Origin: a virus
Taxonomy: Duplodnaviria > Caudoviricetes
IMG/VR virus record: IMGVR_UViG_3300016467_000772
Span: 1-33,957 of that record
Strand: one strand, 5' to 3'
Length of the DNA: 33,957 nt
The notes under the pieces are model-generated. The model was not told the origin of the DNA. It did no database searches and saw nothing but the letters and a program-made list of their open reading frames with translations. The translations under genes were made by a program, and so were the position numbers. This document shows positions 12,650-32,940 of this stretch, one piece after another; position 1 is the first letter of the stretch; each line of letters begins with the position of its first letter.

Positions 12650-12772
12650 ATGGCTGGCCATGGCATTGAGCGCTGTCCCGGCTGGGGTGATGCCCCGGAG
12701 GGCTGGCTGGACGAGTGCCGCGATTGCCAGCACCTGCGCGAGCTGGCTCAACAGCAGGGGGCGCCAGCGTGA
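12650..12772 (+). CDS. hypothetical 40 aa Cys-containing protein (not in ORF track)
   Basis: MAGHGIERCPGWGDAPEGWLDECRDCQHLRELAQQQGAPA; fills the portal-MuF gap, GTGA overlap with MuF. Confidence 0.4.
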   Translation: MAGHGIERCPGWGDAPEGWLDECRDCQHLRELAQQQGAPA

Positions 12773-17398: not shown

Positions 17399-18415
17399 AT
17401 GGCCAACCTGCAAGAGATCGCCCGCCTGGTGCGGGAGGAGCTGCTGACCCTGATTCAGCCTGTGCGGTTGATGACGGTCAATCCCGATCGCGGGACGGGT
17501 GAGGTGTCAGGCCGGTTTCGGTCCAATGGTGTTCTGTTCGACTACTCGATCGGCTCCGGCTCCGTGACCTATCGCCCCGTGGGCGCCGGAGGCGATCGAG
17601 CCGACAGCGCCGCCGGGATCCGCCGTGATGCCAATGGAGCGGCCCGCAAGTGTCAGACCGGCTACTCCTGCGGCAACAGCTGCATCCCCAAGGGGAAAAA
17701 GTGCCGCAAGCAACCGGGGGCCGCAGCCAAGGAGGTGCTGGCGATCGTCAAGGTCAGCGGCCCTGGCCAGGCCGCCGGGAAGGGCAAGGCCAAAGGTGCC
17801 GGCAAGGCTGCCCCCGCCGCCAAGGGTGCCGTGAAGGGGCCAAGCCTGAAGGAGGTCAAGGCGGCGATCGTCAAGGATTTCGGCGTCAAGAGCGTCCGAG
17901 CGCTGAAGGCGGACAAGACCTTTCAGATGGCCATGGCGGGTGAGGACAATCCACTGTCTAGCCATGAGGATTGGCTGAAGGTCTACCGGCGGTTCATCGG
18001 TGTTCCCAAGAATGAGCGGAATCAGCCCGATGGGCCAACCGTGATCAACGGGCTCGATGTGACCAAGCATTTCAGGCCATGGCACACGTTTGGCCTGGAT
18101 CCGAAAACGGCAACGGTCAGCGACATCAATCAGGCCTACCGGCGACTGATGAAAAAGCACCATCCCGACATGGGTGGTGATCCCCGCGTGGCTGAACGAC
18201 TCACGCAGATGCGCAAGTCCCTAATCGCGCTGCACCCCGAGACGGAGGCCAAGAGCAAGGGCCGCCGCGATTCCGCAGACCGCCGCCTGTGGACTCAGGC
18301 CCGATGGGACGGCTACCAGGAGGTCATGACGGCCGCGGCCAGATCTGATGCCTCCGGCGCCAAAAAAAAAATTGTGAACGTGGCTATGGATGCGGCTCGA
18401 CCTGTATTCAGCTGA
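17399..18415 (+). CDS. modular protein: N-terminal 'YRP' domain, Cys module, Ala/Lys linker, DnaJ J-domain
   Basis: CQTGYSCGNSCIPKGKKC at 17651-17704; J-domain 'FGLDPKTATVSDINQAYRRLMKKHHPDMGGD' (HPD 18161-18169). Confidence 0.85.
   Translation: MANLQEIARLVREELLTLIQPVRLMTVNPDRGTGEVSGRFRSNGVLFDYSIGSGSVTYRPVGAGGDRADSAAGIRRDANGAARKCQTGYSCGNSCIPKGKKCRKQPGAAAKEVLAIVKVSGPGQAAGKGKAKGAGKAAPAAKGAVKGPSLKEVKAAIVKDFGVKSVRALKADKTFQMAMAGEDNPLSSHEDWLKVYRRFIGVPKNERNQPDGPTVINGLDVTKHFRPWHTFGLDPKTATVSDINQAYRRLMKKHHPDMGGDPRVAERLTQMRKSLIALHPETEAKSKGRRDSADRRLWTQARWDGYQEVMTAAARSDASGAKKKIVNVAMDAARPVFS
18362..18371 (+). other. A10 homopolymer frameshift site joining the J-domain ORF to the zeta-toxin frame
   Basis: The -1 frame directly after the tract reads KNCERGYGCGSTCIQLTKDC (Cys module) and stays open to 19440; that frame has TGA at 18346-18348 and no start before 18556. 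Confidence 0.85.
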
Positions 18416-19440
18416 CCAAAGACTGCAACAAGGCCAGCGGCGCCGCAGCACAGCGGCTACGGGCTGCGCTGGGCGTTCAGCCCAAGGCTCGCGAGAGTAG
18501 CGCCAGCTCAAAAGCGCAGAAGCGCATTGCAGAGCTTCAGGCAGAACGCGAAAGAATGGGGCGGCAGCTGGTCGCTGACCTGACCCGACAGCGGCCTGAT
18601 GGCCTGGGAACATTCATCGAGCATCCAGACGCTGCGTCGATGAAGCGAATCGACCGGGTGCAGCGGCGGATCGTGCATGTGGATCGTGCCCTGAACAAGC
18701 TGGAAGGGAAGGAGGCGACGCACAAGCGCTGGGTTGAGGGGGATCCGTATGGTCTGAGCCGTTACTCCGACTTCGAGAGCCCTGGAAGACGCGCCTATGA
18801 GGACAAGTTGATCGCGGATCGTCTTGCTGGCGCGACCAGTACCGGGCGGGCGGTCTTCCTGTCTGGTGGGCCGGCATCAGGGAAATCAACCCTGCGGCAG
18901 CGCGAGTTTGGCGACGCCAAGGGGTTCGTCACAATCGACCCGGACGAGCTGAAGAACGCGGATCCCGTTATGGCGATCGGCGTCGCCCTGGGGATGCGTG
19001 CCGCCGCCGCGCTCGCCCACGAAAACTCCAGTCGCCTCGCGAAACGCCTCTATGGCACCACTCGCGACCAGGGCCTTGATGTGCTGGTCGATGGCACCGG
19101 CGCCAATGCGGGCAAGTACATCAGCCAGATGCAGGAGCTGCAGGGACGTGGATACCGTGTAACCCTGCTGGCTCAGCATGTGCCCGAGGAGGTCGGCGTT
19201 AGCCGCGCCCTGGCCCGCGCAGACAAGGCCGGCCGCTATGTCCCGCCTGAGTTCATCAGGCACGCCTACGAGGTGATCCCCGGCAACTTCGAGCGCCTGG
19301 CCCGTGTCGCAGACAGCGCCACCTTGAACGACGGTGAAAGCAACACGGTGATCATGCGCTACGAGCGCGGCCGCCACGCAGGGGGCGATGCGAAACGAAC
19401 GGCCGAATACCGCAAGCGCTACGGTCGCCCACGCCCGTAG
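18370..19440 (+). CDS. Cys module + zeta-toxin-family P-loop kinase (frameshift continuation of 17399 ORF; ORF-track start 18556)
   Basis: Walker A 'GGPASGKS' (18865-18888), 'TIDPDELK', 'VLVDGTG', 'RADKAGRYVP', typical of Zeta_toxin/AAA_33. Confidence 0.85.
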   Translation, partial: NCERGYGCGSTCIQLTKDCNKASGAAAQRLRAALGVQPKARESSASSKAQKRIAELQAERERMGRQLVADLTRQRPDGLGTFIEHPDAASMKRIDRVQRRIVHVDRALNKLEGKEATHKRWVEGDPYGLSRYSDFESPGRRAYEDKLIADRLAGATSTGRAVFLSGGPASGKSTLRQREFGDAKGFVTIDPDELKNADPVMAIGVALGMRAAAALAHENSSRLAKRLYGTTRDQGLDVLVDGTGANAGKYISQMQELQGRGYRVTLLAQHVPEEVGVSRALARADKAGRYVPPEFIRHAYEVIPGNFERLARVADSATLNDGESNTVIMRYERGRHAGGDAKRTAEYRKRYGRPRP

Positions 19441-19479
19441 CCGACCATCGTCGCGTATACTCGAACAGGAGGACGAGCC

Positions 19480-19665
19480 ATGAGCACAGCAGATCGAGCC
19501 GACAGGGATGCCCGCCGCCAGGCCTATAGGGCTATGCGGGAGGAGATCCCAAGCGTGACACCAGCGCGTGATGCCCAGCTGAAACAGCTGTACCCGGTTG
19601 ATGGCAGCGATACACCAGCCGAATACAAGAAGATCAGCCCTGAGGCATTCTTTGACGGCGATTGA
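19480..19665 (+). CDS. small protein downstream of zeta toxin (candidate antitoxin)
   Basis: 61 aa with AGGAGG RBS at 19467-19472; function inferred from position only. Confidence 0.6.
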   Translation: MSTADRADRDARRQAYRAMREEIPSVTPARDAQLKQLYPVDGSDTPAEYKKISPEAFFDGD

Positions 19666-19753
19666 GGGCAGCCGTCCGGCTTCGCTAGAGGCTGCAAGCC
19701 GGCATTCGCCAGAATGGGAAGACGTGGGCTGGCGATGAATTGTGGAGCTGCTG

Positions 19754-22700
19754 ATGGGGCTGAGCATCCGAGCGGCGGAGGAGCGCATTCAGCGCCTGGA
19801 CGCCAAGATCAAGCAGGCCCCCGGTCAGATGGGCTTCGACTTCAGCGCTCCCCCGCCGGCAGGGAAGGTGCCCAAGGGCGGCGGTGGCACCGGCAGCTCG
19901 CGGAAGCCCAAGGGTAGAAAGGCCCCCAGCGCCAAGGGTGGCGGCACTGGCCAGAGGTGCGGCGGTGGCTGGATTGATCCCCGGAAGGAATGCCACAAGG
20001 GCGGCGGCGGTGCGACCGGTGTAGCGCCCGATGGCAGGGGGCTCAATGGCGGCGGCTCTGCTCGCAAGACGCCTCAGATCCATGAACCATTGACGGTCGG
20101 CGGCAATCAGCCCGGCTGGAAGACCTACAACGTTGCCGCCGAAAAACAGGCCTATAAGGGTGGCCTTCGCTTCTGGCGATCAGCACAAGGGCGTCACCCA
20201 GCCTACTTCTACTTCTTCCGCGACCGCAATGCGGTAGAGCATTGGCTGGCAGATGACAACGCAAAGGCAGATGCTGACATGGAGGCCGGCTCAGACAAGC
20301 GGCGGAGCAAGGAGTGGCAGGCCGAATACAAGGCATCCTATGAATCGCATCGCAACATGTACCGGGAGACCGGTGATTATGATCTGCTCAAGATCGCCGA
20401 GGGCTTCGCGGAGGCGGGCAAGGCAACCCGCGTCGGGACCGTCATCGACGTGCGGATTGCAGGCAACAAGCACTCTCGTCCCATCCGTGATGGGTTCTTC
20501 GATCCCAAGGGCAAGAAGGAAGAATCGCCGCCGGCCACCGCCGAGCCGGTTCTGACCAACCCTGGCAGGGAGGATCCCGGCCTGGCGCCCAAGCCCAAGC
20601 CCACCGGCATCAGCGCCAATGAGGCCGTCACCGCCAAGCAGCAGGCCGATCTGGCAAGGCAGCAACAGCAGGCGGCGCGTGAGGCCGGCGATGACAAAGG
20701 CGCTCAGGCCTGGAAGGAGCGCGAGCGGGCTGTCGAGCGCGAACGCCTCGCCGGAGCTATGCAGCAGCGCCAGCAGAGCCAGACATCCCTGTTCGGCGTC
20801 ACCGAATACGACGAGACGATGCCCCTGTTCCGGGGCGACAGTATCGACCCCGTAGCTCAGCTCTGCGGGCAGATCCTGCGCGAGCAGCTCCCCGGTGCTC
20901 AGGTGCTCGACTGGAGCGCACACCCCCGCGGCATCACCGCCGGCCGTGCCGCCGCCGGTGGGCTTGTCTACCGCTTCCGCCTGGATGCCGCATCCATCGG
21001 CTACAGGCCCGCCTGGGATGGCGTCAGCGAGCAGCAATGGGAGCACCGCTCCGAAGGCTTCCTGCTGGCGCGTGATCCCGCCGTCCGGTTGGATGCCAAG
21101 GCCCGCGCCAAGTTCAGGCAGACCAGCTCAAAACGGAAATGCGGCAAGGGCTATGGCTGCGGATCAGCCTGCATCAGCCTGCAAAAAGAGTGCCGCACTA
21201 CCCCAAAAACCGCTATCGGGAAGCTCAGGCTGAGTCAGCTGCAGGCCCTGGCGAAAGAAGGCGACAGCAAGGCCGCGGCAACTGCTCAGCAGGTGCAGCT
21301 GCAGCGAAATGCGCAGGCCGAGGGGCTTCGCAAGGGTCGACAGGTGAAATCCCTGGAAAAAATGCTGCAGGATCCTGCGGTGGCGGAAATGGTCCGCACC
21401 GGCAAGGTGCCAACGGCTGCGGCCGGCGCAGCGAAGCCGGGGCAGGTGCGAGACGTGAAACCCGATGAAGTCGAGGTTGATGCGGATCGGTTCCAGTACA
21501 AGATCGGCAGCAGCGCCACCGGCGAGGTGGGATCCCTGTCGGGTGTCCGTCGATGGGATCCGAACCTGGCTGGCGTCATCAGCGTTTGGCAGGATCCAGC
21601 GGACGGCAAAACCTATGTCGTCAACGGTCACAACCGTCTTGCGCTGGCCAAGCGCCTGGGGGCCGAGGAGGTCACGGTCAGGTATCTGAAAGCCAAGGAT
21701 GCAAAGGAGGCCCGTGCGATCGGCGCCCTGCAGAACATCGCCGAGGGTGCCGGCAGCGAGATCGATGCTGGCAAGTTCTTCCGTGACACCGGCGTCAAGA
21801 CCCTTGCCGAGGTGGAGGCCAAGGGTCTGCCGCTGCGGAGTGGCAAGGCTCAGAAGGGTCTTGCGCTGGCACAGTTGCCGGATGAAATGTTTGACGACGT
21901 TGTGCATGGCCGTCTGCGGATGCGCCGCGCTGCAGTGATCGGGGCATCAGGGCTCGATCAGGACAAGCAGCGAGAGGTCTACAAGAAGCTCAAGGCGACA
22001 CCATCCATGACGGATGAAACCCTGCAGGAGTATGTCGAGCACCTTGAGGTCAGCACCCGTCAGACGCAGGGAACGATCGACGTTTTTGGCACCGGTGAGA
22101 AGGTGGTCGATAACGGCCTGGCACGGGCTGAACTGGCCAGCGGCCTGAAGAAGGCTCTGGGGCGTGAAGCAAGGCTGCTGAGTGCTGTGTCCAAGAGCGC
22201 TGCAGCTGTTGAGCTGCTGGAGCAACGGGGCGGCAACACGATCAATGTGGAGCAGAGCCAGCAACAGGCCGGCGAAGCCAGCACGGTGTTGCGCACGTTC
22301 GATCAGCTGAAGAGCGTGAGCGGCCCTGTCGCCGACGCATTGAACGATGCCGCCACCCGTGTCACCAACGGGGAGAACAAAAACAAGGTCATGCGGGAGC
22401 TGCGGGCCAAGATCATTGATGCGCTTGAGGAGGAGCTGAAGCGCCTGGGGTTGAAGAAGCCCGACTCGACGGTCAACGAAGCACCGACCATGAGCATCTT
22501 CGATCGGGCCGACCGCTTCGACAGCCTGCTGGTCCGCATTGACGCCCTGAAGCGCAAGTGCCAGACCGGCTACGCCTGTGGCAGCACCTGCATCAGCGCC
22601 GACAAGGATTGTCGGTCCAGCGGCAAGGCCACGACCGGCAAGGAGCGCCTGAAGCGGCTGGAGCAGGCTGCCCAGGGCGGCAGCGCCGGCCGCGGCATCG

Positions 22701-23359
22701 GTCGCCTGAGGGGCGAAAGCGCAGCAGCCAAGGCCGGGGAGATCAGGGCATCCCGCGCACAGCAGGCCGCTGCGCTCCGCCAACAGCGCGGGCAACAGCG
22801 CGGCCGTGCCGGGGCCCTGGCGATTGGCGGGCGTGCAACACCTGAGGTGATCACGCCTGAGGTGATCACGCCCGAGCAGGGAGCGAATGGGATCGCTCGG
22901 CGCCGCGGCCGTCGTCCGGGCAGCATCGCGGATCTGATGCAGCAGGGACTGGATCAGCTGAAGGCCTCAGATGCCCGTCACATGGGGATGCTTGCCGAGC
23001 AGCTCTTTGAGACCAGCTGGAAGGTCGAGAGGCGCACCCGGTTCCCTGGCATGAGCAAGGACCAGGCGCGAGACGCCTTCAAGGCTGATTTCGTGCGGAA
23101 GATGCAAGAGGGCGCGAGCTCGCCCGAGGCCGCTGCTCGCCAGCAGGAGCGCCGCCGGAAGGTGTCGGAGGCCGGCAGCCTGGCAGGCGCCATGAAGGTG
23201 CTGCTCGAAGAAATGAAGCAGGGCGATCAACGGCTGGAGCAGATGGGGCGCGACGTGATCAACGCGAGAATCGCAGCTGAAGAGATTGGCGAGAATGGCG
23301 ATGGGCCGGCGCTTGGCGGCAGCACCGGCCGCCGCCGGCTGGGGGGCCGCCGCCCGTGA
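19754..23359 (+). CDS. large polyvalent modular protein with ParB-like domain and three Cys modules
   Basis: ATG 19754 after GGAG; CGGGWIDPRKEC 19958-19993; Cys modules 21140-21193 and 22559-22612; ParB-like 'VDADRFQYK...GVISVWQDPADGKTYVVNGHNRLALAKRLG'. Confidence 0.85.
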   Translation: MGLSIRAAEERIQRLDAKIKQAPGQMGFDFSAPPPAGKVPKGGGGTGSSRKPKGRKAPSAKGGGTGQRCGGGWIDPRKECHKGGGGATGVAPDGRGLNGGGSARKTPQIHEPLTVGGNQPGWKTYNVAAEKQAYKGGLRFWRSAQGRHPAYFYFFRDRNAVEHWLADDNAKADADMEAGSDKRRSKEWQAEYKASYESHRNMYRETGDYDLLKIAEGFAEAGKATRVGTVIDVRIAGNKHSRPIRDGFFDPKGKKEESPPATAEPVLTNPGREDPGLAPKPKPTGISANEAVTAKQQADLARQQQQAAREAGDDKGAQAWKERERAVERERLAGAMQQRQQSQTSLFGVTEYDETMPLFRGDSIDPVAQLCGQILREQLPGAQVLDWSAHPRGITAGRAAAGGLVYRFRLDAASIGYRPAWDGVSEQQWEHRSEGFLLARDPAVRLDAKARAKFRQTSSKRKCGKGYGCGSACISLQKECRTTPKTAIGKLRLSQLQALAKEGDSKAAATAQQVQLQRNAQAEGLRKGRQVKSLEKMLQDPAVAEMVRTGKVPTAAAGAAKPGQVRDVKPDEVEVDADRFQYKIGSSATGEVGSLSGVRRWDPNLAGVISVWQDPADGKTYVVNGHNRLALAKRLGAEEVTVRYLKAKDAKEARAIGALQNIAEGAGSEIDAGKFFRDTGVKTLAEVEAKGLPLRSGKAQKGLALAQLPDEMFDDVVHGRLRMRRAAVIGASGLDQDKQREVYKKLKATPSMTDETLQEYVEHLEVSTRQTQGTIDVFGTGEKVVDNGLARAELASGLKKALGREARLLSAVSKSAAAVELLEQRGGNTINVEQSQQQAGEASTVLRTFDQLKSVSGPVADALNDAATRVTNGENKNKVMRELRAKIIDALEEELKRLGLKKPDSTVNEAPTMSIFDRADRFDSLLVRIDALKRKCQTGYACGSTCISADKDCRSSGKATTGKERLKRLEQAAQGGSAGRGIGRLRGESAAAKAGEIRASRAQQAAALRQQRGQQRGRAGALAIGGRATPEVITPEVITPEQGANGIARRRGRRPGSIADLMQQGLDQLKASDARHMGMLAEQLFETSWKVERRTRFPGMSKDQARDAFKADFVRKMQEGASSPEAAARQQERRRKVSEAGSLAGAMKVLLEEMKQGDQRLEQMGRDVINARIAAEEIGENGDGPALGGSTGRRRLGGRRP
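22841..22870 (+). repeat. 15-nt exact tandem duplication (PEVIT x2)
   Basis: cctgaggtgatcacg twice. Confidence 0.9.
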
Positions 23360-24342
23360 GCAGATCCACGCCCGCGACCCTTCGCCACCAGCGGGCCCGC
23401 CTGGATGCCCTGGAGGCCCGCGCTGATGCGCTGAAACGCAAGTGCCAGACCGGCTACGCCTGCGGGAGCACCTGCATCGACAGGGACAAGGATTGCGCCA
23501 GGCAGTCCGGCGCCGCCGCTGAAGGCCTCCGGCAGCGGATCAAGGGGTATGCCCGCCGGTTGCTTGGCCGCACCGGTCGCACCGAGCGTCAGCCGCCTCC
23601 CAGCGCAGCGTCCGCAACGGCTGCCGCGGCCCGGATTCAGGCCATGGCAGCGGCTCGGCGGCAACAGGAGAGGGAACAGCAGCAGCGCGATGAGGAAATG
23701 CTCAGTCGCCCACCCCGGCCCTGGGCAGTCAAGCGAGTCGAGCACCGTGAGCAGAAGGACGGCGATGCCATTGGCTGGCACGACAGCCGCTTTGAGGTCC
23801 AACTGGAGCGCCCGCTACGGCTCCCGGTGGCACACGGCAAAGGGAGCAAGGTCTACGACAGGCTCAGTTTCTCAGTGGCCGTTGAGCCGGCCAATGCGGC
23901 GCCGGTCGCCAGGCAGTTGCTGAAGCAGGGCGTCTCCCTGCCCCGCGAAGCGGTCGCCAGTGCTCTTGAGCTCGGATGGGCCACTGGCGCCGGTGGCAGC
24001 GAGTCCCTGCTCACTGCAGAGCGGCTTTCATTGCCTCAGGACGTAGCGCGGCGATTCTCGCGGGAGATCTCAAAACAGGTGAAAGCCCTGGTCTCCAGAT
24101 CGGAAGAGGGGCAGATCGTCTTGTGCAGCGCTTACGACGAAGACGGCGCCGGTGAAAAGCGTCAATCGCTTTACAAGCGAGCCGGCTTCACCTTTATCGA
24201 CGGCGTTGGCGTTGCCGTCGTGCGCAACGGCAAGCTCAGTCGCATCGAGGGTGCCCGCGGTGATCGACAGGATGCCGCCGACGAGATCAACCTGGATGAC
24301 CTGATTTACAAACTGCTCACACTGGAGCCCGCAGACCGATGA
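23356..24342 (+). CDS. modular protein: RLDAL leader + Cys module + GNAT-like C-terminal domain
   Basis: Cys module 23443-23496; C-terminal 'VLCSAYDEDGAGEKRQSLYKRAGF' resembles the GNAT 'LYxRxGF' motif. CDS is solid; the domain call is tentative. Confidence 0.7.
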   Translation: MSRSTPATLRHQRARLDALEARADALKRKCQTGYACGSTCIDRDKDCARQSGAAAEGLRQRIKGYARRLLGRTGRTERQPPPSAASATAAAARIQAMAAARRQQEREQQQRDEEMLSRPPRPWAVKRVEHREQKDGDAIGWHDSRFEVQLERPLRLPVAHGKGSKVYDRLSFSVAVEPANAAPVARQLLKQGVSLPREAVASALELGWATGAGGSESLLTAERLSLPQDVARRFSREISKQVKALVSRSEEGQIVLCSAYDEDGAGEKRQSLYKRAGFTFIDGVGVAVVRNGKLSRIEGARGDRQDAADEINLDDLIYKLLTLEPADR

Positions 24343-26378
24343 CACGCATCGTTGAGCACCAGCGGGCCCGGCTGGATGCCCTGCTCGCCCGCGCTGATGC
24401 CCTGAAGCGGAAATGCCAGACCGGCTACGCCTGCGGGAGCACCTGCATCAACGTCAAGAAGGAATGCCGATCGGAGGGTGGCGCCGCCGTCAGCAAGGAA
24501 AGGATCAAGCGCCTGGAGCAGCTGGCCAAGGGTGAGATCAAACCTCGCGGCATCGGCACCCCCAAGCCGGAGGAAGCGGCGGCCCTGGCGGGCGCCCTGC
24601 GCACTGCCCGCACCAGCAAGGCCGGTGAGCTCCGTGATCAACGCAAGGCTGCAAGGGAGGCCAAGGAGCAAGCGGCGGCCACCAAGCAGGCAGCGACCAC
24701 CCGCGCCGCCAAGGCCACCGCCAACCCCCGCGCAGAGGCCGATACGGTCGAATCGTCGGGCGATTACGACTTCGCCCGCAAGTCCGAGGTGCAGAACGCT
24801 GGCGAGGACATTGCTCTGTCAGCCCGTCACCGGCGCAATGCCTTCCGCACCATCGAAGAAGCCGAGGCGTCTGGTCAGGTTGAAAAGATCCTGACCAGGG
24901 ACAATCTCTTCAAGAACTTCCCGACCGATCTGGTCAGCGGCATTGACGAGCACAACGCACTCAGCCGGCTGGAGGCGCACTATGCGCTGCGTGCATTCCC
25001 TAGTCTCGCCGCAAAGGACGTGGATAAGTATGTCGCAGCTGCCAAGAGACGCAAGGACCAAAGGGATGCCGATCCTTCCCGACAGTTCACGCCAGAAGAG
25101 GCCGTCGATGCCAAGACGGTGCGAAAGCAGTATTTCGACACGTTCCAAGAGTTGCGGCAGATGGTCGAGAGCAATAAGGACCTGCCGCCCGGCGAATTGC
25201 GTCGCAAGATGACAGCCCGAATCTCCGAAATGATCGGAACGCTACGCAAGCAATCCGGCGAAGGATACGGCCGCACCTATCGAGACCCCTTCAATCCTGT
25301 CGCCAATAGCCTGATCAGTATGCACGACAGGCTCAGAAAGACCGGCAAGACATCTTTATATGGGCAGATGAATGAGTTTGCCAAGGCGCTCAAGGCCACC
25401 GGCGACATGGATCAGGGCGCCGAAACGGCCATGAAGCGTGCTGCTGAGGCCGCGGCAAAGGTGATCGAAGGCGCCAGCCTGGATAAGGCCTTTGGGCGAG
25501 AGGGCAACGGTAAGTGGCGGTTCACCTCTGCTGAGCGCTATGTCGGCGCCGTCCGACGTTCTGGCGGGCGATCGGTGGGTGGCACCCCCGAGCAGGCCAC
25601 GGATGCCATCGTCAAGGGCCTGGGCTTCCGCGGGCTCCAGTACGGCAACTCTGTGACCGATGACGAGCGGCGGCACCATGTTCAGAAGGCTGCTGAGGCT
25701 CTGGTCGATCTCGCGGATGCCATCGGCTTGCCCGACTCTGCGATCGGTCTGAACGGCACCCTGGCCCTGGCCATCGGCGCCCGCGGTCGCGGTGGCGCCG
25801 TCGCTCACTATGAGCCTGACCTGAAGGTGATCAACCTCACCCGCAAGAACGGTGTCGGCTCGCTGGCCCACGAGTGGGCGCATGCGCTCGATAACTACGC
25901 CGCGGGTGGGCAGAGTTTCCTCTCTGATTACGTTGGATCCCCTGAGCAGCGCAGCAAGATGCTCAGCGTCGTCAACAGTTGGAGTGAGAGCGCCTATACG
26001 CAGTCCTGTTACGCCGCGCTACGCGAGATCAGGCAAAACGGCGGCATGGTGAATGAAAAATACTGGCTCAGCCACGTTGAAATGTTCGCCCGTTCTTTCG
26101 AGGGCTATGTCGCGCTCAAGCAGCTGAAGGCTGGCAAGGCAAACACCTATCAGACACGCGAGTTCACGGAGAGAGGGGCGAAAAAGGCTGGCCAGCTTCC
26201 CTTTGTTGGTGAAGGCCTGTGGCCGACAGAGGAGCAGGCCCGGAAAATGGAACCGATGTTTGATGCCCTGATCGCTCAGCTGCGACAGGACAAGTTCCCC
26301 GGCCCCACCAACCGGACCGACAGCCGCGACGAACGGATCTGGCGGTTCATGCACGCCATCGCCGGTGCCCGCCGATGA
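24339..26378 (+). CDS. modular protein: leader + Cys module + LPD1-like zincin domain
   Basis: Cys module 24414-24467; 'FRGLQYGNSV...ALVDLADAIG...LNGTLALAIGARGRGGAVAHYEP...VINLTRKNGVGSLAHEWAHALD...EMFARSFE' matches LPD1-type large polyvalent proteins. Confidence 0.85.
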   Translation: MTRIVEHQRARLDALLARADALKRKCQTGYACGSTCINVKKECRSEGGAAVSKERIKRLEQLAKGEIKPRGIGTPKPEEAAALAGALRTARTSKAGELRDQRKAAREAKEQAAATKQAATTRAAKATANPRAEADTVESSGDYDFARKSEVQNAGEDIALSARHRRNAFRTIEEAEASGQVEKILTRDNLFKNFPTDLVSGIDEHNALSRLEAHYALRAFPSLAAKDVDKYVAAAKRRKDQRDADPSRQFTPEEAVDAKTVRKQYFDTFQELRQMVESNKDLPPGELRRKMTARISEMIGTLRKQSGEGYGRTYRDPFNPVANSLISMHDRLRKTGKTSLYGQMNEFAKALKATGDMDQGAETAMKRAAEAAAKVIEGASLDKAFGREGNGKWRFTSAERYVGAVRRSGGRSVGGTPEQATDAIVKGLGFRGLQYGNSVTDDERRHHVQKAAEALVDLADAIGLPDSAIGLNGTLALAIGARGRGGAVAHYEPDLKVINLTRKNGVGSLAHEWAHALDNYAAGGQSFLSDYVGSPEQRSKMLSVVNSWSESAYTQSCYAALREIRQNGGMVNEKYWLSHVEMFARSFEGYVALKQLKAGKANTYQTREFTERGAKKAGQLPFVGEGLWPTEEQARKMEPMFDALIAQLRQDKFPGPTNRTDSRDERIWRFMHAIAGARR

Positions 26379-29300
26379 AGACCGCCAGCCTCGCTGCTCG
26401 CCTGGACGCCCTGCAGGCCCGGCTGGATGCCCGCCGCCGCGCCGAGGCGCCCGGCCAGATGGGTCTCGACTTCACCGCCCCCGCCCCCGCCCCCGGAGGA
26501 GGCGAGAAGTGCGGCGGCAGCTGGATCGACCCCAAGAAGGAATGCCACAAGGGGCCGGGCGGAGCGATCCCCGAGCGCCCCAGTGAGGCCCGGCGCAGCA
26601 AGCCGAAAGAGCGGATCTCCTTCCCCGATCCGATCGTGGGTCCCACCGGCGCCAAGCTCACCGGCTACACCTGGCAGTGGACCCTGACCGAGGACCTGGA
26701 TCACCGGGGCGAACCGGTCGAGAAACGAGTATCCGACTGGGAAAAGAGCATTGCCAGCGTCGAAACCGGCCGGAACGTGGTTCACCAGTTCGATGTTGAG
26801 GTCAACGGCGAAACGCGCACTGTCAGCGCCGAATCTGCCCTGAAGCTGATGGGCTTCATCAGCGATGCCGACCGCAAGGCCTTCGGCAGCATCAAGAGCG
26901 GCGCCCGCACCGTCGCCCGGCTGCGCATGGCACAGCAGGAGCTGGATCAGAGGGAGAAGGCATGGCAGAAGGACTGGGATGCCGTAGAGGCCTCGCCGCG
27001 GCCACCGCTTGAGGTCGGCGAGTGGGAGGAGGTGTCGGCCGCCGGCCGCAGTGGAGCGTACCGGCGCCGCGCCTGGAGAGCCGGCGACATCGAGGATTAT
27101 CAGATCTGGAACGAGCTCGGCGCCTTCCCGGACCAGGACCAGGCCGCCCACGTCTGGGTGCAGTGGAAGGCAAAGGAAATGGAGCGCCGCGGGTGGGATT
27201 ACACCGGCCAGCGCAAGCGCTCGATGCAGAGCAGCATCGAGCGGCAGCGCGACGATCTGACGAAGCGGCTGGCCAAGGCTGAGGCCAAGCTGAAGGCGCT
27301 CACCGGATCGGGCTCCACCATGGCGGCTGACGGCCGCGGCGACTCAGCCGATCGCATCGACGCCCTGCAGGCCCGGATGGACCGCCGCTGCCAGCGGCCG
27401 GATGGCAGCTACTACGGCACCAGCGGCGAATGCAAGAAGGGCAAGCAGGCTGGCGCCGTAGCAGCTGCCAAGAAGGCGGCGCCGAGGGCTCCGCGCACGC
27501 CAGCAGTCAAGACCCGCGCCAAGGCTGCACCGGCGACCAAGGCGACCCCGGCTGCCAAGGCTGCAGCGGTCGCCAGGGCCGCCAAGAAGGCACCACCTGC
27601 CGATCCCGCTGCCTCGGCTGCCAAGAAGGCCGCTTCGAGAGCGACCAACGGGCCAGCCGCGCCGGCCGCCAAGACCCGCGCCAAGGCGACCAAGGCGACC
27701 AAGGCGGCCCCGGCCGTGACAAGCAGCCCGCTCAAGAACATCAGGGATGAAGCGGCGGTCCAGCGTCAACTGCTGACAGAAGAGGCAAAGATCAGGAAGC
27801 TGCCAGAAGAGAACATTGTCGTCATCAGCCCCAAGGGCAAGGTGCTCTATCGCGGCACAGAAGGCGATAGCAACCACGTCGCCATGGGCAAAGGTGAAGG
27901 CCTATACGACGACTTCCTCACCGTTACTCACAACCACCCGGAGGCTGGAAACCAGGGCTATGACGCCAAGGTCAAAGGCTCGCAGCTCACTGCAGGATTC
28001 TCGCCGGGTGATCTGAAATCAGCCATCAAGCGCTACATGGCCGAAATGCGAGTCGTGGGCGCCACCAGGGCCTACAGCTTCAAGCCGTCCTATAGCAAGA
28101 TCGAGAACGTAGGGCTAGTGGTTGACAGGGCCAAGACATTCAATCAGGAAATCCAGACCGCCTACGAACTGGGTCGCTCAAACCGAATGAGATCGGAAAT
28201 GGAGGTGAGCGAGAAGTTTGCGCAGCGGATCAAGGAAGCCGAACGGCAGTGGTGGAATCCCGTCAAGCGCCGCAAGGCGGGCCGGCTCAAGGTGATGCGC
28301 GATCGTTCGGCGCAGGCCATGGCCGCCACCGCGCACTTTCGGGAGCAGGCCAGTGCGCTGCGCGTTCTGCGTGACCATGGATGGGACATCACATCACGCC
28401 GTAGCCGAGATCTCGAAGCGGCACCCGCTCGGCGGGCCGACCGCATCGACGCCCTGGAGCAGCGCCTGGATGCCCTGAAGCGGAAATGCCAGACCGGCTA
28501 CGGCTGTGGCTCGGCGTGCATCAGCGTCAAGAAGGAATGTCGCAGTAGCCCGAGCGCCGCGATCAGCAAGGAACGCATCCGCCGGCTGGAGCAGCTCGCC
28601 AAGGGTGAGATCAAGCCGCGGGGCATTGGCACCCCCAAGCCGGGCGAGGCAGCTGCTCTGGCGAGCGGGCTTCGCGCTGCCCGCAGTGGCAAGGCCGGCA
28701 GCCTGCGCGATCAACGCAAGGCCGCCGCTGCTGCCAAGGCCGCAGCAACGGAACAGCCGGAGCGTCCCCAGCGCACACGCCGGGCACCGGGCACAAGCCG
28801 GCCGCCCAAGGATCCCAACCGCAAGCCCGGTGTGAAGGTGCTGCTCCGCCGCGCCAAGCCGGGCGGCGAGTACGGGCCAGACGGCCACTGGTATCCCGGC
28901 GGCGCCTGGATCAGTGAAGGCAGCTATGTCGGTGCCAAGCCTCAGGGAGAAGGCGAAGCCGCCGGCAACGCCGGCAAGGGCAAGCCGGGAGGCGGCGAGG
29001 AACGAGTGATTCGCCCCCGGCGCCCCCGGTTCCCGGAACGCCCGCTACAGCCCAGAGGAGAGGGTCTGCCGCAGCCAGCCGGGCTGAAGAAGATCGCCAC
29101 GAAAAACGACGAGATCTTCTTTGGCCGTGACGGCTTCATCCGCTACCCGCAACCGAAGGGTGCTCCAGGCCTGGAAGGAACGCTGTTTGAGGCGGCGGTG
29201 ATCCAGCGGATGACCACAGAAGAACTCAAGTGGGCGACGGAGCAAATCCGGCAGAGGGTTGAGGCATCTGGCGATCAAAATACAAAAGACTGGTTCCGTG

Positions 29301-29614
29301 ATAGCCAGCTGAACATCGACGACGACATTGCTCGTTATGGGGGTGCAGAAAGCTTCTCCCAACAAGACCGCTGGACGGCACGCAGGCAGCTATCTGGTGT
29401 CGATGCCGATCGCTACATCGCGGGCCGCCGGTTCATGATGGCATCAAGAATCTTGGCAGGCATCAACAGCGAGGCCGGCCGCCGCCGAGAGGAGCGCTAC
29501 AGCGATCCCCGGTTCGAGGATTGGATCAAGCCAGAACATGGCGAATACGACAGATGGGTATGGGGGCTGAACAACGTCTTCAAGGCCGTTCGCATCAGGA
29601 GAGGGCGCCAGTGA
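26375..29614 (+). CDS. tripartite modular protein with JAB/MPN-like domain
   Basis: Three units, each opened by R-x-D-A-L plus a Cys module (26510-26545, 27389-27433, 28487-28540); middle unit has 'EE...VTHNHP...FSPGD', a JAMM-like HxH...SxxD. Confidence 0.8.
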   Translation: MKTASLAARLDALQARLDARRRAEAPGQMGLDFTAPAPAPGGGEKCGGSWIDPKKECHKGPGGAIPERPSEARRSKPKERISFPDPIVGPTGAKLTGYTWQWTLTEDLDHRGEPVEKRVSDWEKSIASVETGRNVVHQFDVEVNGETRTVSAESALKLMGFISDADRKAFGSIKSGARTVARLRMAQQELDQREKAWQKDWDAVEASPRPPLEVGEWEEVSAAGRSGAYRRRAWRAGDIEDYQIWNELGAFPDQDQAAHVWVQWKAKEMERRGWDYTGQRKRSMQSSIERQRDDLTKRLAKAEAKLKALTGSGSTMAADGRGDSADRIDALQARMDRRCQRPDGSYYGTSGECKKGKQAGAVAAAKKAAPRAPRTPAVKTRAKAAPATKATPAAKAAAVARAAKKAPPADPAASAAKKAASRATNGPAAPAAKTRAKATKATKAAPAVTSSPLKNIRDEAAVQRQLLTEEAKIRKLPEENIVVISPKGKVLYRGTEGDSNHVAMGKGEGLYDDFLTVTHNHPEAGNQGYDAKVKGSQLTAGFSPGDLKSAIKRYMAEMRVVGATRAYSFKPSYSKIENVGLVVDRAKTFNQEIQTAYELGRSNRMRSEMEVSEKFAQRIKEAERQWWNPVKRRKAGRLKVMRDRSAQAMAATAHFREQASALRVLRDHGWDITSRRSRDLEAAPARRADRIDALEQRLDALKRKCQTGYGCGSACISVKKECRSSPSAAISKERIRRLEQLAKGEIKPRGIGTPKPGEAAALASGLRAARSGKAGSLRDQRKAAAAAKAAATEQPERPQRTRRAPGTSRPPKDPNRKPGVKVLLRRAKPGGEYGPDGHWYPGGAWISEGSYVGAKPQGEGEAAGNAGKGKPGGGEERVIRPRRPRFPERPLQPRGEGLPQPAGLKKIATKNDEIFFGRDGFIRYPQPKGAPGLEGTLFEAAVIQRMTTEELKWATEQIRQRVEASGDQNTKDWFRDSQLNIDDDIARYGGAESFSQQDRWTARRQLSGVDADRYIAGRRFMMASRILAGINSEAGRRREERYSDPRFEDWIKPEHGEYDRWVWGLNNVFKAVRIRRGRQ
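28438..28542 (+). repeat. 105-nt near-identical dispersed repeat, copy 1
   Basis: Matches 29634-29738 with one mismatch (G28503 vs C29699); encodes DRIDALEQRLDALKRKCQTGYxCGSACISVKKEC. Confidence 0.9.
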
Positions 29615-31014
29615 CCCACCAGCAGACCACCAGCGACCGCATCGACGCCCTGGAGCAGCGCCTGGATGCCCTGAAGCGGAAATGCCAGACCGGCTACGCC
29701 TGTGGCTCGGCGTGCATCAGCGTCAAGAAGGAATGTCGGAGCAACCCGCAGGACAGCCTGAGCAAGGAGCGTGCTCAGCGCCTGATGGCCCTGGCCAAGG
29801 GTGAGATCAAGCCACGGGGCGCATTCGGCCTGAAGCCCGAGCAGGCCGGCGAGCTGGCGATGGGGATCAACAAGTTCCAGCGCACCGGCATCAAGCCCGA
29901 CTGGCACGCCGAGCCGGGCACCGATGCCGGTGCGGCCGACGAGCTGGATGTGAGCACACCAGAGGCTCGCATGGCATTCATGAAGACAATTCGCCAGCGA
30001 TCTGTCGCCCGCCCTGGCGCCACCTACGACGGCGGCTCCATGGCGGCTGGTCTGCTGAAGCTCTGCGATGAACCCGGCGAGACGGGCCGTCAGGCGCGGC
30101 GGGTGGCCAAGTTCCTGCGGGACAGCAACATCGTCACGGTCGTTGATCGCGTCCGGCCTACGAGCCGCCGCGGCAACGACGCGAACACCGTCGTCCAGGA
30201 GAAAGAGGTCAAGCACCTGCTGACGAAGGAGGCCATTGGTCTATTGGGAGAACGTTCCCCGTTGATCAAGCGGATCGCCGATAGCATCACCTACAGCAAC
30301 GACCTAATTAGGCATCACCGCCGATCGCTCAAGGAGCTAAAGATCAGCATCGAGGAAGACAAGAAGATGGGCTGGGACACGCTGGAGGTTACGAAAGAGG
30401 CAGTCAAGCACCACAAGGAAGGGCTGAAGATGGCGCAGGAAGACAGGGCGATCATGTACCGATCACTGACGCACCTGACACAAGGCAAGCCTGAGGCTCA
30501 TGGCATGGCAACCCGTGAGGGTCTGCTGCTGATGCGAGACGATCCCGATTACGATCAGCCGTGGTCGCCAACGGGCTACAGCGCTGCTGACATGAGCGCA
30601 GCTGCCCGCCGTCACCTCATAGCAGGCAAAAAAACGTCGCACTTTGCTGTAAGCCATTCAGGCAATACATGGTCAGAGAAGACGCTGGGAACCTACGTCC
30701 ACGAGCTTGGTCACATGGTTCACTTCGCATCCGGCGACGCCCGGAACACGCTGGCCGTTCTGCCGTTTGAGCTGCAAACAAGAATCCGCGAAAAGGACGA
30801 CACCAATCCGCTCAGCCCCTTGATCGGCAAGCCGGAGTATTTCGTTAGTGACTACTCCAGGACGAACAGGCTGGAGCTGTTCGCTGAAACCTTCACCGCC
30901 TTTGTCCTGGCGCCGGAGCAGCTGCGAAAGCAGCAGCCGGATCTCTACAACTGGGTTGACGACACCCTCCGCCGCGCTCAGCAGTCGCCGCAGCTGCCGC
31001 AGGGCCGAGCATGA
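29611..31014 (+). CDS. modular protein: leader + Cys module + zincin metallopeptidase
   Basis: Start GTG 29611 (GTGA overlap); Cys module 29683-29736; 'YVHELGHMVH' (30700-30714) and 'VSDYSRTNRLELFAETF', as in anthrax-LF/MPTase-like zincins. Confidence 0.85.
   Translation: MTHQQTTSDRIDALEQRLDALKRKCQTGYACGSACISVKKECRSNPQDSLSKERAQRLMALAKGEIKPRGAFGLKPEQAGELAMGINKFQRTGIKPDWHAEPGTDAGAADELDVSTPEARMAFMKTIRQRSVARPGATYDGGSMAAGLLKLCDEPGETGRQARRVAKFLRDSNIVTVVDRVRPTSRRGNDANTVVQEKEVKHLLTKEAIGLLGERSPLIKRIADSITYSNDLIRHHRRSLKELKISIEEDKKMGWDTLEVTKEAVKHHKEGLKMAQEDRAIMYRSLTHLTQGKPEAHGMATREGLLLMRDDPDYDQPWSPTGYSAADMSAAARRHLIAGKKTSHFAVSHSGNTWSEKTLGTYVHELGHMVHFASGDARNTLAVLPFELQTRIREKDDTNPLSPLIGKPEYFVSDYSRTNRLELFAETFTAFVLAPEQLRKQQPDLYNWVDDTLRRAQQSPQLPQGRA
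29634..29738 (+). repeat. 105-nt near-identical dispersed repeat, copy 2
   Basis: Matches 28438-28542. Confidence 0.9.
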
Positions 31015-31283
31015 TGGCAACAGCACCCGCGCAGTCGACCGTGTTCAATGCCGCCACCAGGGAGGCCCTGCTGGCCTGGCTGGTCAGTTACCGATCAGCC
31101 AAGGGCAGCGAGCGAAAGCGCCTGGGCATGCAGGTTGAGGCCCACACCGCCATGGCGGACGGTGCGCAAGATCAGATCTGGCTGGCGGTGCTTCACGCCA
31201 ACGCCGAGACCAATACACCGGTCGATGCCGTTGCCGCTGAGGCCGATCGCGTTGCCGCAGCGGCAGCAGGCGGCACCCCTTGA
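31011..31283 (+). CDS. small helical protein downstream of zincin (candidate partner/immunity)
   Basis: 90 aa, 4-nt overlaps at both ends. Confidence 0.6.
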   Translation: MMATAPAQSTVFNAATREALLAWLVSYRSAKGSERKRLGMQVEAHTAMADGAQDQIWLAVLHANAETNTPVDAVAAEADRVAAAAAGGTP

Positions 31284-32644
31284 AATCGCGCCTGGCCACC
31301 CTGACCGCCCGGCTGGATGCCCTGCAGGCCCGGCTGGATGCCCGCCGCCGCGCCGAGGCCCCCGGTCAGATGGCGCTGGATCTCACCGGCGCCAGCACCG
31401 GCCAGAAGTGTGGCGACGGCTGGATCAGCCCCCGGAAGGAATGCCGCAAGGGTGCGGCCGGCGGTGCCGCTGAGGTCTCGGCTCCGGCCAACAGCCGGTT
31501 CATGCAGCTGCACCAGGAGACGCAGGCCCGCAAGGCTGCCGCGGCCGAGCAGCGGGCGGCCACTGCCAAGGCCAGGGCAGCAGCCGATCGCAAGACAGCG
31601 CAGCAGGCCGCCGCGGGTGCGATGCCGGTGGTCGTCACCCAGCTGGACAACGGCGAATTGCGCTTCAACGGGCGCCCCGCCAAGAAGGCCCTGGGCAGCG
31701 GCGCCTTTGGTGATACCTGGATGGTCGACACGCCGGCCGGGCCGGCCGTGGTCAAGGTGGACCGGTTGACCAATGGCGACCCGCTGGATCGCAGCCACAC
31801 CCCGCCCGATCGCGCCACGCAGCGCCGCAACATGGTTGAACGCGAGCGGGCCAACATGGAGCGGGCTCACGCGCTCGGCCTGGGGCCGCGGCCACTCGGA
31901 CCGGTTCAGAGGCTTCTCGATGGCCGGCTGGCCTTTGCCTATGCCATGGATCCCGGCGTCAAGCTGGCCGCTGATCACAGGGCTATGGAGCCGACCCCGG
32001 AAGCGGCAGAGGTGTTGCGCCAGCCTGGGGCTCTGGCGCGTTACGCCGCCGGTGTTGCCCGCATCGCCCGCACCATGGCCGATGCCGGCTTCGATCACGG
32101 CGACCTGCACGGCGGCAACATCCTGATCGGCGCCGATGGCACGCCATCGCTGATCGACTGGGGCATGGCAGAGCAGAAGAAGAATGCCCTACCCCATGAG
32201 CGGGCCATGATCGAGGCCGCGGCACTAGCCGTGCTCGGCAACCATCTGGTGAAGATCAACGAGCAGATCAACGGTCCAGACCCCACCGGCCGGATGGTGC
32301 GGCGCAAGCCGACCATTGACCACTTGCTCGGCCACGTCATGAGCATGGTCTGGAAGGCACCCAAGGCCTACAAGGCTGTGACCGATGCCTTTGACAAGGA
32401 GCAGAGCCGGAGCGGTGCCTACAAGGTGCCCGGCACCATCCCTGAACTCTTCAGAAAGATGCACAAGCTGGCCGAGAGCGGCGTCGACATTGACGAGGCC
32501 GAACGGATGGTGGGCCTTCTGCCGCCGCTGCCCGATGCGGTCAAGGCAAAGGCCGCGGCAGCTCGCGATCGTGTCTTTGGCCCCCGGCACCTGGAGCGCT
32601 TCCGCCGCGCTATTGATCAGCACTACGCCGCCCTGTTGCCGTGA
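31280..32644 (+). CDS. modular protein: leader + CGxxWI module + protein-kinase-like domain
   Basis: CGDGWISPRKEC 31409-31444; Gly loop 'LGSGAFG', 'AVVK', catalytic 'HGDLHGGNILI', 'LIDWG'. Confidence 0.88.
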   Translation: MKSRLATLTARLDALQARLDARRRAEAPGQMALDLTGASTGQKCGDGWISPRKECRKGAAGGAAEVSAPANSRFMQLHQETQARKAAAAEQRAATAKARAAADRKTAQQAAAGAMPVVVTQLDNGELRFNGRPAKKALGSGAFGDTWMVDTPAGPAVVKVDRLTNGDPLDRSHTPPDRATQRRNMVERERANMERAHALGLGPRPLGPVQRLLDGRLAFAYAMDPGVKLAADHRAMEPTPEAAEVLRQPGALARYAAGVARIARTMADAGFDHGDLHGGNILIGADGTPSLIDWGMAEQKKNALPHERAMIEAAALAVLGNHLVKINEQINGPDPTGRMVRRKPTIDHLLGHVMSMVWKAPKAYKAVTDAFDKEQSRSGAYKVPGTIPELFRKMHKLAESGVDIDEAERMVGLLPPLPDAVKAKAAAARDRVFGPRHLERFRRAIDQHYAALLP

Positions 32645-32940
32645 ACGCCACCCCTGCCCACATCACCGCCTGGGCGGCCTACAAGCAGGCGGAAGGCCGC
32701 GGCGATCTGGTCGCCGCAGAGCGGTCCTATCGCGAATGGCTTGATCTGCTGTCAGGCTCGATCAGGAACGATGCCGCGCCCCCGATGACCGGTTCACAGG
32801 AGCAGAAGCCCGCCCCGGCTCCGAGCGATGCCGGCGGCGGCATCGACTGGAGCAACGTGGCCAGCGAGGTCGGGATCATGCTGGCGCTGAATCCTCAGGC
32901 GGGCTCTGATCAGGAGGAAGAGCAAGAAGAGCCCGCGTGA
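32641..32940 (+). CDS. small acidic protein downstream of kinase
   Basis: 99 aa, GTGA-coupled; contains 'RNDAA'. Confidence 0.6.
   Translation: MNATPAHITAWAAYKQAEGRGDLVAAERSYREWLDLLSGSIRNDAAPPMTGSQEQKPAPAPSDAGGGIDWSNVASEVGIMLALNPQAGSDQEEEQEEPA

What the first reader, a model, noticed from the sequence alone, without database searches (positions are those of the whole stretch)
17399..32940. Array of modular phage effector proteins sharing a common leader/Cys 'address tag' with interchangeable toxin-like domains
Seen: seven large co-oriented proteins downstream of portal/MuF are built from about 12 units. Most units are [R-x-D-A-L leader] + [small Cys module] + [basic helical/low-complexity linker] + [unrelated cargo domain]. 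Cargo domains are J-domain, zeta-toxin P-loop, ParB-like, GNAT-like, LPD1 zincin, JAB-like, HExxH zincin, protein kinase, and several unknown domains. Known: these domain classes recur in phage polyvalent proteins and MuF-linked polymorphic toxins. Inference: a conserved tag directs diverse effectors into the head for co-injection with DNA (host takeover, anti-defence or competition), i.e. a polymorphic cargo system not fused to MuF. I do not recognise this tag as a described family.
Basis: partly seen in the sequence, partly recalled or inferred. Interest (0 to 1): 0.93.

Follow-up and report, generated by a model that had tools for sequence, protein, structure and literature searches.

The report
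Portable cysteine tag on cyanophage cargo
Twelve unrelated protein domains in this cyanophage each sit behind the same small, undescribed cysteine module and a likely cut site for the virus's head-maturation protease; relatives bearing the module are found in purified virions of two cultured cyanophages, so it likely marks cargo loaded into the head for delivery with the DNA.

Summary
Confirmed and extended. Seven genes (one split by a frameshift) carry 12 Cys modules, each followed by a different cargo domain. The 'tag' has two parts. The R-x-D-A leader is likely the cut site of the DUF2213 head protease. It recurs in that protease's scaffold, and it becomes x-D/E-F in phages with a Mu-type head, whose scaffolds carry the Phe motif instead. 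This scan noted the RxD rule before on other DNA. The Cys module is the constant part: no Pfam or PDB match, 997 clusters, three kinds of head. It usually lies at the start of the mature protein: after a cut site, a start codon or a signal peptide. All 4 module-bearing genes of cultured phage CL131 are in its published virion proteome. In S-CBWM1 the three kinases reported in virions start with the module; a fourth kinase lacks it. Not always next to portal/MuF, sometimes fused to them; no cognate immunity pattern. Best reading: packaged, protease-released effector cargo with a portable loading or retention tag. No experiment shows what the module binds.

The parts
10469..12646 (+). Portal (PF06381, DUF1073 type) with acidic/Cys tail, DUF6496 and three RxD[AS] sites in the C-tail
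12715..14139 (+). MuF protein; no Cys module, no RxD[AS], no toxin family hit
17399..18415 (+). Gene A, first frame: N-domain, leader, type A module, J-domain cargo
17408..17584 (+). N-domain copy 1 (helix plus 4-strand sheet, predicted), upstream of the predicted cut
17651..17704 (+). Cys module 1 (type A)
18362..18371 (+). Run of 10 A at which gene A changes frame
18373..18426 (+). Cys module 2 (type A), in the frame of the zeta ORF
18556..19440 (+). Gene A, second frame: zeta-toxin-like P-loop cargo
   Evidence: (E 4.5e-25)
19480..19665 (+). 61-aa ORF after zeta; no homolog in any fetched locus, including the two with a zeta homolog
19742..23359 (+). Gene B, three units: type B module (19958-19993) + unknown; N-domain 2 (20840-21013) + type A module (21140-21193) + ParB-like cargo (21413-22396); type A module (22559-22612) + unknown helical cargo
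23356..24342 (+). Gene C: type A module (23443-23496) + GNAT-like cargo (motif only)
24339..26378 (+). Gene D: type A module (24414-24467) + HExxH zincin (CLCA_X-like) + LPD1
26375..29614 (+). Gene E, three units: type B module (26510-26545) + unknown; type C module (27389-27433) + JAB-like cargo (34% identical to CL131 virion protein ORF044); type A module (28487-28540) + unknown
29521..31014 (+). Gene F: type A module (29683-29736; 99% DNA identity over 99 nt to module at 28487) + HExxH zincin
31011..31283 (+). 90-aa ORF after gene F; homolog only after the gene F ortholog of the closest relative
31280..32644 (+). Gene G: type B module (31409-31444) + APH/protein-kinase-like cargo
32641..32940 (+). 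Conserved array-end peptide (RxD site, then I-D-W-x-N-V-A helix); last element before the DUF2213 protease gene in relatives whatever cargo precedes it

Best explanation
The array encodes polyvalent proteins that are likely packed into the phage head, predicted to be cut by the head-maturation protease after each R-x-D site into twelve pieces that each begin with a basic Cys module, which likely is the tag that loads or holds the cargo in the head so that it would enter the host with the DNA. Shown in sequence: the repeated unit, the motif excess, the match of leader type to protease type, the lack of a known family. Shown by others for homologs: presence in purified virions (about 0.85 that it holds here). 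Inferred: cleavage by the DUF2213 protease (0.8); the module is what selects or retains cargo (0.5); it does so as a small basic knuckle binding DNA, the partner I think most likely (0.4; inner capsid wall or scaffold are the alternatives); cargo acts in the newly infected cyanobacterium against defences or to redirect the host (0.7). Near-identical DNA across modules lets units be shuffled by recombination.
For: Closest complete relative G001 has the same array directly followed by DUF2213 protease-scaffold, cement and PF09950 capsid genes; all 7 profile matches in that genome lie in the array. RxD[ASG] in 4 of 4 DUF2213 scaffolds: 10, 3, 12, 5 sites (0.5-1.2 expected); x-[FY]-x-E in 0 of these but 5, 7, 6 in 3 of 3 Mu-type scaffolds (0.2-0.5 expected). 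Leaders within 25 aa of type A modules: DUF2213 heads RxD 51 of 53 (background 15%); Mu heads [DEN]F 10 of 16, 4 more at a native N-terminus, RxD 1 of 16; lambda-portal/S78 heads RxD 0 of 5, all with an Arg 2-12 residues upstream. Nodularia phage 2AV2, found by structure alone, has Mu-type scaffold and D/E-F leaders in 2 of 2 module proteins. T1 capsid protein of the same family (E 4e-33) reads V-K-Q-D at 23-26 and its cryo-EM model starts at residue 27 (PMC11945409). CL131: ORF044, 045, 047, 048 carry 1, 1, 1, 5 modules; all four are in the LC-MS/MS virion list, ORF048 with the top score (PMC6293099 Table S5); 4 of 21 matched virion ORFs against 0 of 113 others have a module, and RxD[AS] is 17 vs 4.6 expected in virion ORFs, 5 vs 7.3 in others. 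S-CBWM1: RIO-, ChoK- and APH-like kinases begin with the module and have no leader; these three kinase types are the ones reported in its virions (PMC10665884 citing Xu 2018); its PknB-like kinase has no module. All 12 window module regions have more K/R than D/E.
Against: No cleavage, binding or delivery experiment exists for this family. Virion mass spectrometry cannot tell inside from outside, and the citing paper itself warns of co-purification. The four CL131 genes are neighbours in the late operon, so the Fisher p of 5e-4 overstates independence. The module is retained in portal and MuF fusions, where it is not needed for loading. It is not needed for all cargo: an NMNAT-like protein is reported in S-CBWM1 virions and none of its five module genes is so annotated; S-CBS4 has the DUF2213 head and no module. 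49 of 132 new representative hits are signal-peptide-like secreted proteins, so the module is a generic fold, not a phage-only address; their partners (SH3, sunset-like at E 0.004-0.03) do not point clearly to DNA. Many DUF2213 loci were found with leader-containing queries, which inflates 51 of 53. The Phe regex was written after seeing two of the three Mu scaffolds. The protease gene itself is not on this contig.
Confidence: 0.6

Rival explanations
1. As in T4, the address is the part that is cut off (N-domain and amphipathic leader that co-assemble with the scaffold); the Cys module only acts later, in retention, ejection or folding.
For: N-domain lies within 90 aa upstream of a module in 20 of 25 non-redundant cases and in DUF2213 and Mu-type phages. 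RxD sites come in 7-residue pairs (80 of 231 spacings up to 30). Best scaffold segment scores near the 97th-99th percentile of a leader profile in 4 of 7 scaffolds (weak). Module kept in portal/MuF fusions.
Against: S-CBWM1 kinases and PaV-LD ORF080 have neither leader nor N-domain, only the module at the N-terminus; 13 of 132 representatives start with the module.
Confidence: 0.2
2. The module has no targeting role: it is a hitchhiking DNA repeat that serves as a recombination joint, and packaging comes from the basic low-complexity linkers.
For: Five window modules share 70-99% DNA identity and exact tracts of 16-61 nt; laid contigs of other strains join at module positions.
Against: C, G, C-G, C-I and C are invariant in 21 modules from three head types whose other positions differ; other window pairs share only 44-59% DNA identity; single-unit proteins keep it.
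Confidence: 0.1
3. The proteins are outer virion parts (disulfide-linked decoration or tail-associated enzymes acting on the cell envelope).
For: Homologous modules are in secreted proteins, one with an SH3 domain; one small virus has a module gene directly before a sulfhydryl oxidase; some cargoes are alpha/beta hydrolases or LRAT-like.
Against: Kinases, ADP-ribosyltransferases, zeta-like P-loop and J-domains need cytoplasmic substrates (established knowledge); head-protease sites are reached only inside the procapsid (inference).
Confidence: 0.07
4. A MuF-type polymorphic toxin-immunity locus used in competition between lysogens.
For: Temperate phage (serine integrase); toxin-like cargoes; small ORFs follow three cargo genes; the 90-aa ORF travels with gene F in the one close relative.
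Against: The ORF after zeta has no homolog beside the zeta genes of L012 and L074; the ORF after the kinase is an array-end peptide found after many cargoes; nine units have no small ORF.
Confidence: 0.06

Closest known systems
T4 capsid targeting sequence (CTS) on IPI-III with prohead protease gp21; phiKZ gp175 and SPN3US gp245 processing (PMC9026906, passages read)
   Same: Short shared peptide on unrelated head cargo, next to a prohead-protease motif; several redundant sites in propeptides.
   Different: Protease is DUF2213 with an Asp motif (or Mu-type with Phe, S78 with Arg), not gp21 with Glu. The conserved part lies after the cut and would be kept; the CTS is removed. Units are strung into polyproteins.
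Phage-type polyvalent proteins (Iyer et al. 2017, PMC5512222, passages read)
   Same: Multi-domain late proteins with zincin, kinase, GNAT, ParB-like, LPD1, ART and InPase domains, predicted to be packaged.
   Different: That paper proposes release by embedded metallopeptidases, reports a paucity in cyanobacteria, and its main text has no occurrence of 'cysteine' (its supplements were not seen). Here a repeated adaptor and head-protease sites mark every joint.
MuF-fused polymorphic toxins (Jamet et al. 2017; recalled, not read)
   Same: Toxin-like domains encoded beside portal and MuF; in Mu-type relatives module and cargo are fused to MuF.
   Different: In the window MuF is unfused; cargoes are many per locus; no cognate immunity pattern.
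Virion-associated kinases of cyanophage S-CBWM1 (Xu et al. 2018, seen only as cited in PMC10665884)
   Same: Same Cys module at the N-terminus, same kinase class as gene G.
   Different: The module was not mentioned in the passages read; no leader there.

Membership tests
T4-type CTS/prohead protease cargo system | Short shared peptide at the start of unrelated head cargo | tested here: met
   12 modules before unrelated cargoes; about 60 cargo clusters among 436 units, with at least one false hit
T4-type CTS/prohead protease cargo system | gp21-family protease cutting after Glu | tested here: not met
   Protease of the closest relative is DUF2213; motif is R-x-D
T4-type CTS/prohead protease cargo system | The conserved tag is removed on maturation | tested here: not met
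   By sequence the Cys module lies 2-52 residues after the motif, 5 residues in 137 of 196 type A cases; only the leader would be removed
T4-type CTS/prohead protease cargo system | Tag is sufficient to package a foreign protein | not testable with these tools
   Needs fusion experiments; S-CBWM1 kinases are a natural hint only
Phage-type polyvalent proteins (Iyer 2017) | Two or more unrelated effector-type domains in one polypeptide, from the polyvalent repertoire | tested here: met
   Genes A, B, D, E; LPD1 above cut-off; ART-PolyVal and InPase in relatives
Phage-type polyvalent proteins (Iyer 2017) | Late-gene context in a terminase-portal phage | tested here: met
Phage-type polyvalent proteins (Iyer 2017) | Release by an embedded zincin | tested here: inconclusive
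   Two zincins are present, but joints carry head-protease-type motifs
MuF polymorphic toxins | Toxin domain fused to the MuF C-terminus | tested here: not met
   Window MuF has only PF04233; fusion occurs in relatives L006, L054
MuF polymorphic toxins | Cognate immunity gene after each toxin | tested here: not met
   no homolog of the post-zeta ORF beside other zeta genes; post-kinase ORF is cargo-independent; the post-gene-F ORF is undecided
Described Cys-rich or zinc-finger families (Pfam) | Profile match above cut-off | tested here: not met
   21 modules scanned, best E 0.03; PDB sequences best E 1.8
Described Cys-rich or zinc-finger folds (PDB) | Structural match | tested here: inconclusive
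   32-aa model (pLDDT 71, pTM 0.32) is too small; no rows from Foldseek or VIA-align

The most novel reading that the evidence does not exclude
The ~20-residue Cys knuckle is a self-sufficient, protease-independent capsid-loading tag shared by sipho-, myo- and podo-like cyanophages with three unrelated head modules: it binds the genome (or a common inner-head feature), so that any protein starting with it is packaged and injected. Phages have re-tuned only the upstream cut site to their own protease. It would be the first cargo address that moves between unrelated head-assembly systems, and is of the same family as a widespread secreted bacterial mini-protein.
Probability: 0.35. Interest if true: 0.9.

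Novelty: new variant of a known kind. Interest (0 to 1): 0.72.

Why it matters
How phages other than T4 choose the proteins they inject with their DNA is largely open. This gives a short, searchable sequence that predicts virion cargo (it picks out 4 of 4 such genes in the CL131 proteome and the three packaged kinase types of S-CBWM1), a cleavage rule that tracks three protease families, and a catalogue of dozens of cargo domains, many of unknown function, as candidate first-minute anti-defence or takeover proteins in cyanobacteria. Four cultured phages (CL131, PaV-LD, S-CBWM1, 2AV2) make it testable now; a working tag would also be a protein-delivery tool for cyanobacteria.

Tried and rejected
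Family searches of the module: Pfam, PDB sequences, Foldseek PDB, VIA-align, ESM Atlas (unnamed clusters at 0.80-0.81, a lead only; no usable hit) gave no name. N-domain unit model (pTM 0.73): best PDB Z 4.2, cystatin/PepSY-like arrangement, not significant; part of the model is barely tested. NCBIfam and PADLOC added only CLCA_X (below cut-off) and weak kinase hits. ParB-like domain had no PDB sequence match. Frameshift as an assembly error: not supported by contigs of run X1, which may be the source and so is not independent. No RNA holder listed. Alphaproteobacterial loci L007-L010 are small non-phage proteins with the module, not prophage arrays (2 of 4 inspected). Origin of the small basic module proteins without signal peptide (giant-virus-like by eye) was not established: searches gave nothing. 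A search for longer proteins with the secreted-type module found none. Type B module query found no convincing cultured phage. E217/Pa193 papers show the capsid model starting at residue 66 but I did not fetch those sequences; the Pam3 paper says nothing on cleavage. The PaV-LD paper is not held, so its virion list was not seen. Literature searches for a described module (listings only) and the earlier-findings search found none; most subscription papers are outside the library. No complex prediction was run: no specific binding partner is claimed.
Full report
Context. The window is a whole 33,957-base virus record. It holds replication, serine integrase, terminase, a phage sigma factor, a PF06381 portal and MuF, then the array. 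Relatives lie in Cyanobium MAGs (3 of 9 loci); the nearest cultured capsid protein to a relative's is that of Synechococcus phage S-CBS4 (44%). The host is therefore likely a freshwater picocyanobacterium (inference). Related complete genomes are about 70 kb, so the capsid genes are off this contig.

Observation. Twelve Cys modules (8 type A, 3 type B, 1 type C) lie in seven genes between 17651 and 31444 and nowhere else in the six frames. R-x-D-[AS] occurs 26 times in the eight large ORFs (5.5 expected), 0 times in 16 other proteins (3.6 expected), 3 times in the portal tail. ORFs 17399 and 18556 are one gene that changes frame at a 10-A run; L012 has it as one ORF. J-domain, zeta, LPD1 and kinase pass Pfam cut-offs; the second zincin is below cut-off; ParB-like is a weak PHROG hit; GNAT-like and JAB-like are motif calls that got no family hit.

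Interchangeability. A profile of the 8 type A units found 116 proteins among the 7,991 candidates scored, with 226 modules. A leader-free 32-position profile found 997 clusters at E up to 0.001 among 1.84 billion representatives, of which I saw the best 150. Cargoes named by Pfam include kinases, ADP-ribosyltransferases (one ART-PolyVal), zincins, DnaJ, GNAT, LRAT-like and alpha/beta hydrolases. 436 distinct units fall into 61 single-linkage clusters, 24 with two or more members; the largest merges several cargoes through shared linkers and at least one singleton is a false hit. The closest relative has the same order but lacks the zeta and JAB-like units and fuses the GNAT-like unit to gene B. 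Five window modules share 70-99% DNA identity, enough for recombination (inference).

The leader is likely a protease site. In the closest complete relative the array is followed directly by the DUF2213 protease-scaffold, cement and PF09950 capsid genes. Eleven related scaffolds hold 69 RxD[AS] (6.5 expected); cement, MuF and terminase hold none; every capsid protein inspected has R-x-D in its first residues (10 of 10). The homologous T1 capsid protein has K-Q-D at 24-26 and its cryo-EM model starts at 27 (PMC11945409, passages); this fits cleavage but could be disorder. The decisive pattern is a double dissociation. DUF2213 scaffolds carry RxD and no x-[FY]-x-E (4 of 4); Mu-type scaffolds carry 5-7 x-[FY]-x-E (3 of 3). 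Leaders follow: RxD in 51 of 53 modules of DUF2213 phages, [DEN]F in 10 of 16 in Mu-type phages (4 others at a native start), an Arg close upstream in 5 of 5 in lambda-portal/S78 phages, whose RxD count is 0. The DUF2213 figure is inflated by leader-containing queries, and related genomes are not independent. 2AV2 was found by structure alone and has the D/E-F leader in 2 of 2 proteins. I reached this reading before looking (note); earlier scan notes on other DNA reached the same RxD rule. They are not independent support.

The Cys module is the constant part. It has no Pfam or PDB sequence match. AlphaFold2 gives a small hairpin knuckle (pLDDT 71-82). Of the 132 new representatives, 49 follow a signal-peptide-like start, 38 an RxD, 12 a [DEN]F, 6 an Arg motif, 13 a native start, 13 other, 1 no match (rough rules). 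So it mostly sits at the start of a mature protein. It is fused behind Mu-type portals, a lambda-type portal and MuF in relatives. An upstream N-domain accompanies it in 20 of 25 cases and is conserved in PaV-LD, CL131 and Nodularia phages.

Virion evidence from cultured phages. tblastn found the module in PaV-LD, CL131 and S-CBWM1. CL131 ORF044, 045, 047, 048 carry eight modules; all four are among the 23 proteins of CsCl-purified virions, ORF048 first and ORF045 second by score (PMC6293099, passages and supplementary file 2 part 4 of 6). With my ORF calls on bases 1-110,000, 4 of 21 matched virion ORFs and 0 of 113 others have a module (two listed ORFs were not matched); the four are neighbours, so this is weaker than p 5e-4. 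ORF044's cargo is 34% identical to the window's JAB-like domain. In S-CBWM1 five genes carry the module: the RIO-, ChoK- and APH-like kinases at their N-terminus (for gp161 from an in-frame ATG upstream of the annotated start), gp106, and gp174, annotated virion structural protein. PMC10665884 (passages) cites Xu 2018 for APH, ChoK and Rio2 kinases in its virions; I matched them by product name and did not see the original table, so the absence of the module-less PknB-like gp173 is only 'not named'. PMC9602691 adds an NMNAT in those virions, which is not among the module genes by annotation; PMC9964418 had nothing relevant. S-CBS4 has the same head type and no module: the system is accessory.

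Mechanism. Likely order: precursors join the procapsid core; the head protease cuts at R-x-D, removing leaders and N-domains and splitting the polyproteins; each piece starts with a basic knuckle (K/R exceeds D/E in 12 of 12 regions) that holds it in the head, most plausibly on DNA; pieces leave with the genome and act in the cytoplasm. Whether the module or the leader does the loading is open: leaderless S-CBWM1 kinases favour the module, portal fusions favour a later role. Metal versus disulfide is open: cytoplasmic assembly suggests Zn (inference), secreted homologs and a gene next to a sulfhydryl oxidase suggest disulfides.

Comparison. It works like the T4 CTS/gp21 system (PMC9026906, passages) but is not a member: other proteases, and the conserved tag is kept. 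The proteins are phage-type polyvalent proteins (PMC5512222, passages), a class said there to be scarce in cyanobacteria; no Cys adaptor appears in its main text, and its supplements, unseen, list 40 LPD domains that could include it, although Pfam's LPD models do not hit it. It fails the MuF-toxin test (no fusion, no cognate immunity). Searches listed no description of the module.

Verdict. Real, and better supported than sequence alone would allow because of the two published proteomes. New variant of a known kind; interest 0.72. The bold reading, a self-sufficient portable loading tag, has probability about 0.35.

Noticed in passing
window 18362-18371: A 10-A run puts the zeta unit out of frame; could be a mutation in this population or a slippage/phase-variation switch for a toxic cargo. 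Intact in L012.
   Followed up: partly
window 32641-32940: Conserved array-end peptide (I-D-W-x-N-V-A) just before the protease gene in about 30 loci, free or fused to the last cargo; function unknown.
   Followed up: partly
window 17408-17584 and 20840-21013; L001:1362-1634, L006:2981-3379, L023:7836-8069: Undescribed N-domain, also as a stand-alone small gene in L001 (profile hit) and look-alikes by eye in Mu- and lambda-type heads.
   Followed up: partly
P0124-P0241, L007, L010, L114:2938-3363: Large unnamed family of small secreted bacterial and eukaryotic proteins made of a signal peptide and one or more of the same Cys modules, some with SH3, sunset-like or HNH-like partners.
   Followed up: partly
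L113:14958-15203 and 17494-18331: Pinkberry virus MD00 has two module genes, one directly before a sulfhydryl oxidase gene.
   Followed up: no
window 9413-10432 (-): Sigma-70-type factor antiparallel between terminase and portal; same place in many relatives.
   Followed up: no
window 33218-33862: T5orf172/MUG113 gene where relatives have the protease next; no match in loci L001-L042, so likely an inserted mobile endonuclease.
   Followed up: partly
window 17004-17360: 118-aa ORF with a three-fold acidic Pro/Ala repeat just before the array; homologs in L011, L012, L074.
   Followed up: partly
window 14813-15717: Two signal-peptide-like ORFs between MuF and the array, no family hits.
   Followed up: no
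window 12130-12300 (portal tail): DUF6496 and a Cys-rich acidic stretch in the portal extension, bounded by RxD sites; possibly another released piece.
   Followed up: no
L054:18301-21699: MuF protein interrupted by an intein-like insert (Pfam E 1e-7) and fused to a module and zincin cargo.
   Followed up: no
L051:8800-12981: CL131 portal is a portal-InPase-MuF fusion with RxD sites at the joints.
   Followed up: partly
window 17768: Run X1 contig has an 18-base in-frame duplication in the linker of gene A.
   Followed up: no
L013:1131-1370, L018:1721-1960: 79-aa fragment resembling DUF2213 upstream of the sigma gene, apart from the full protease gene.
   Followed up: no
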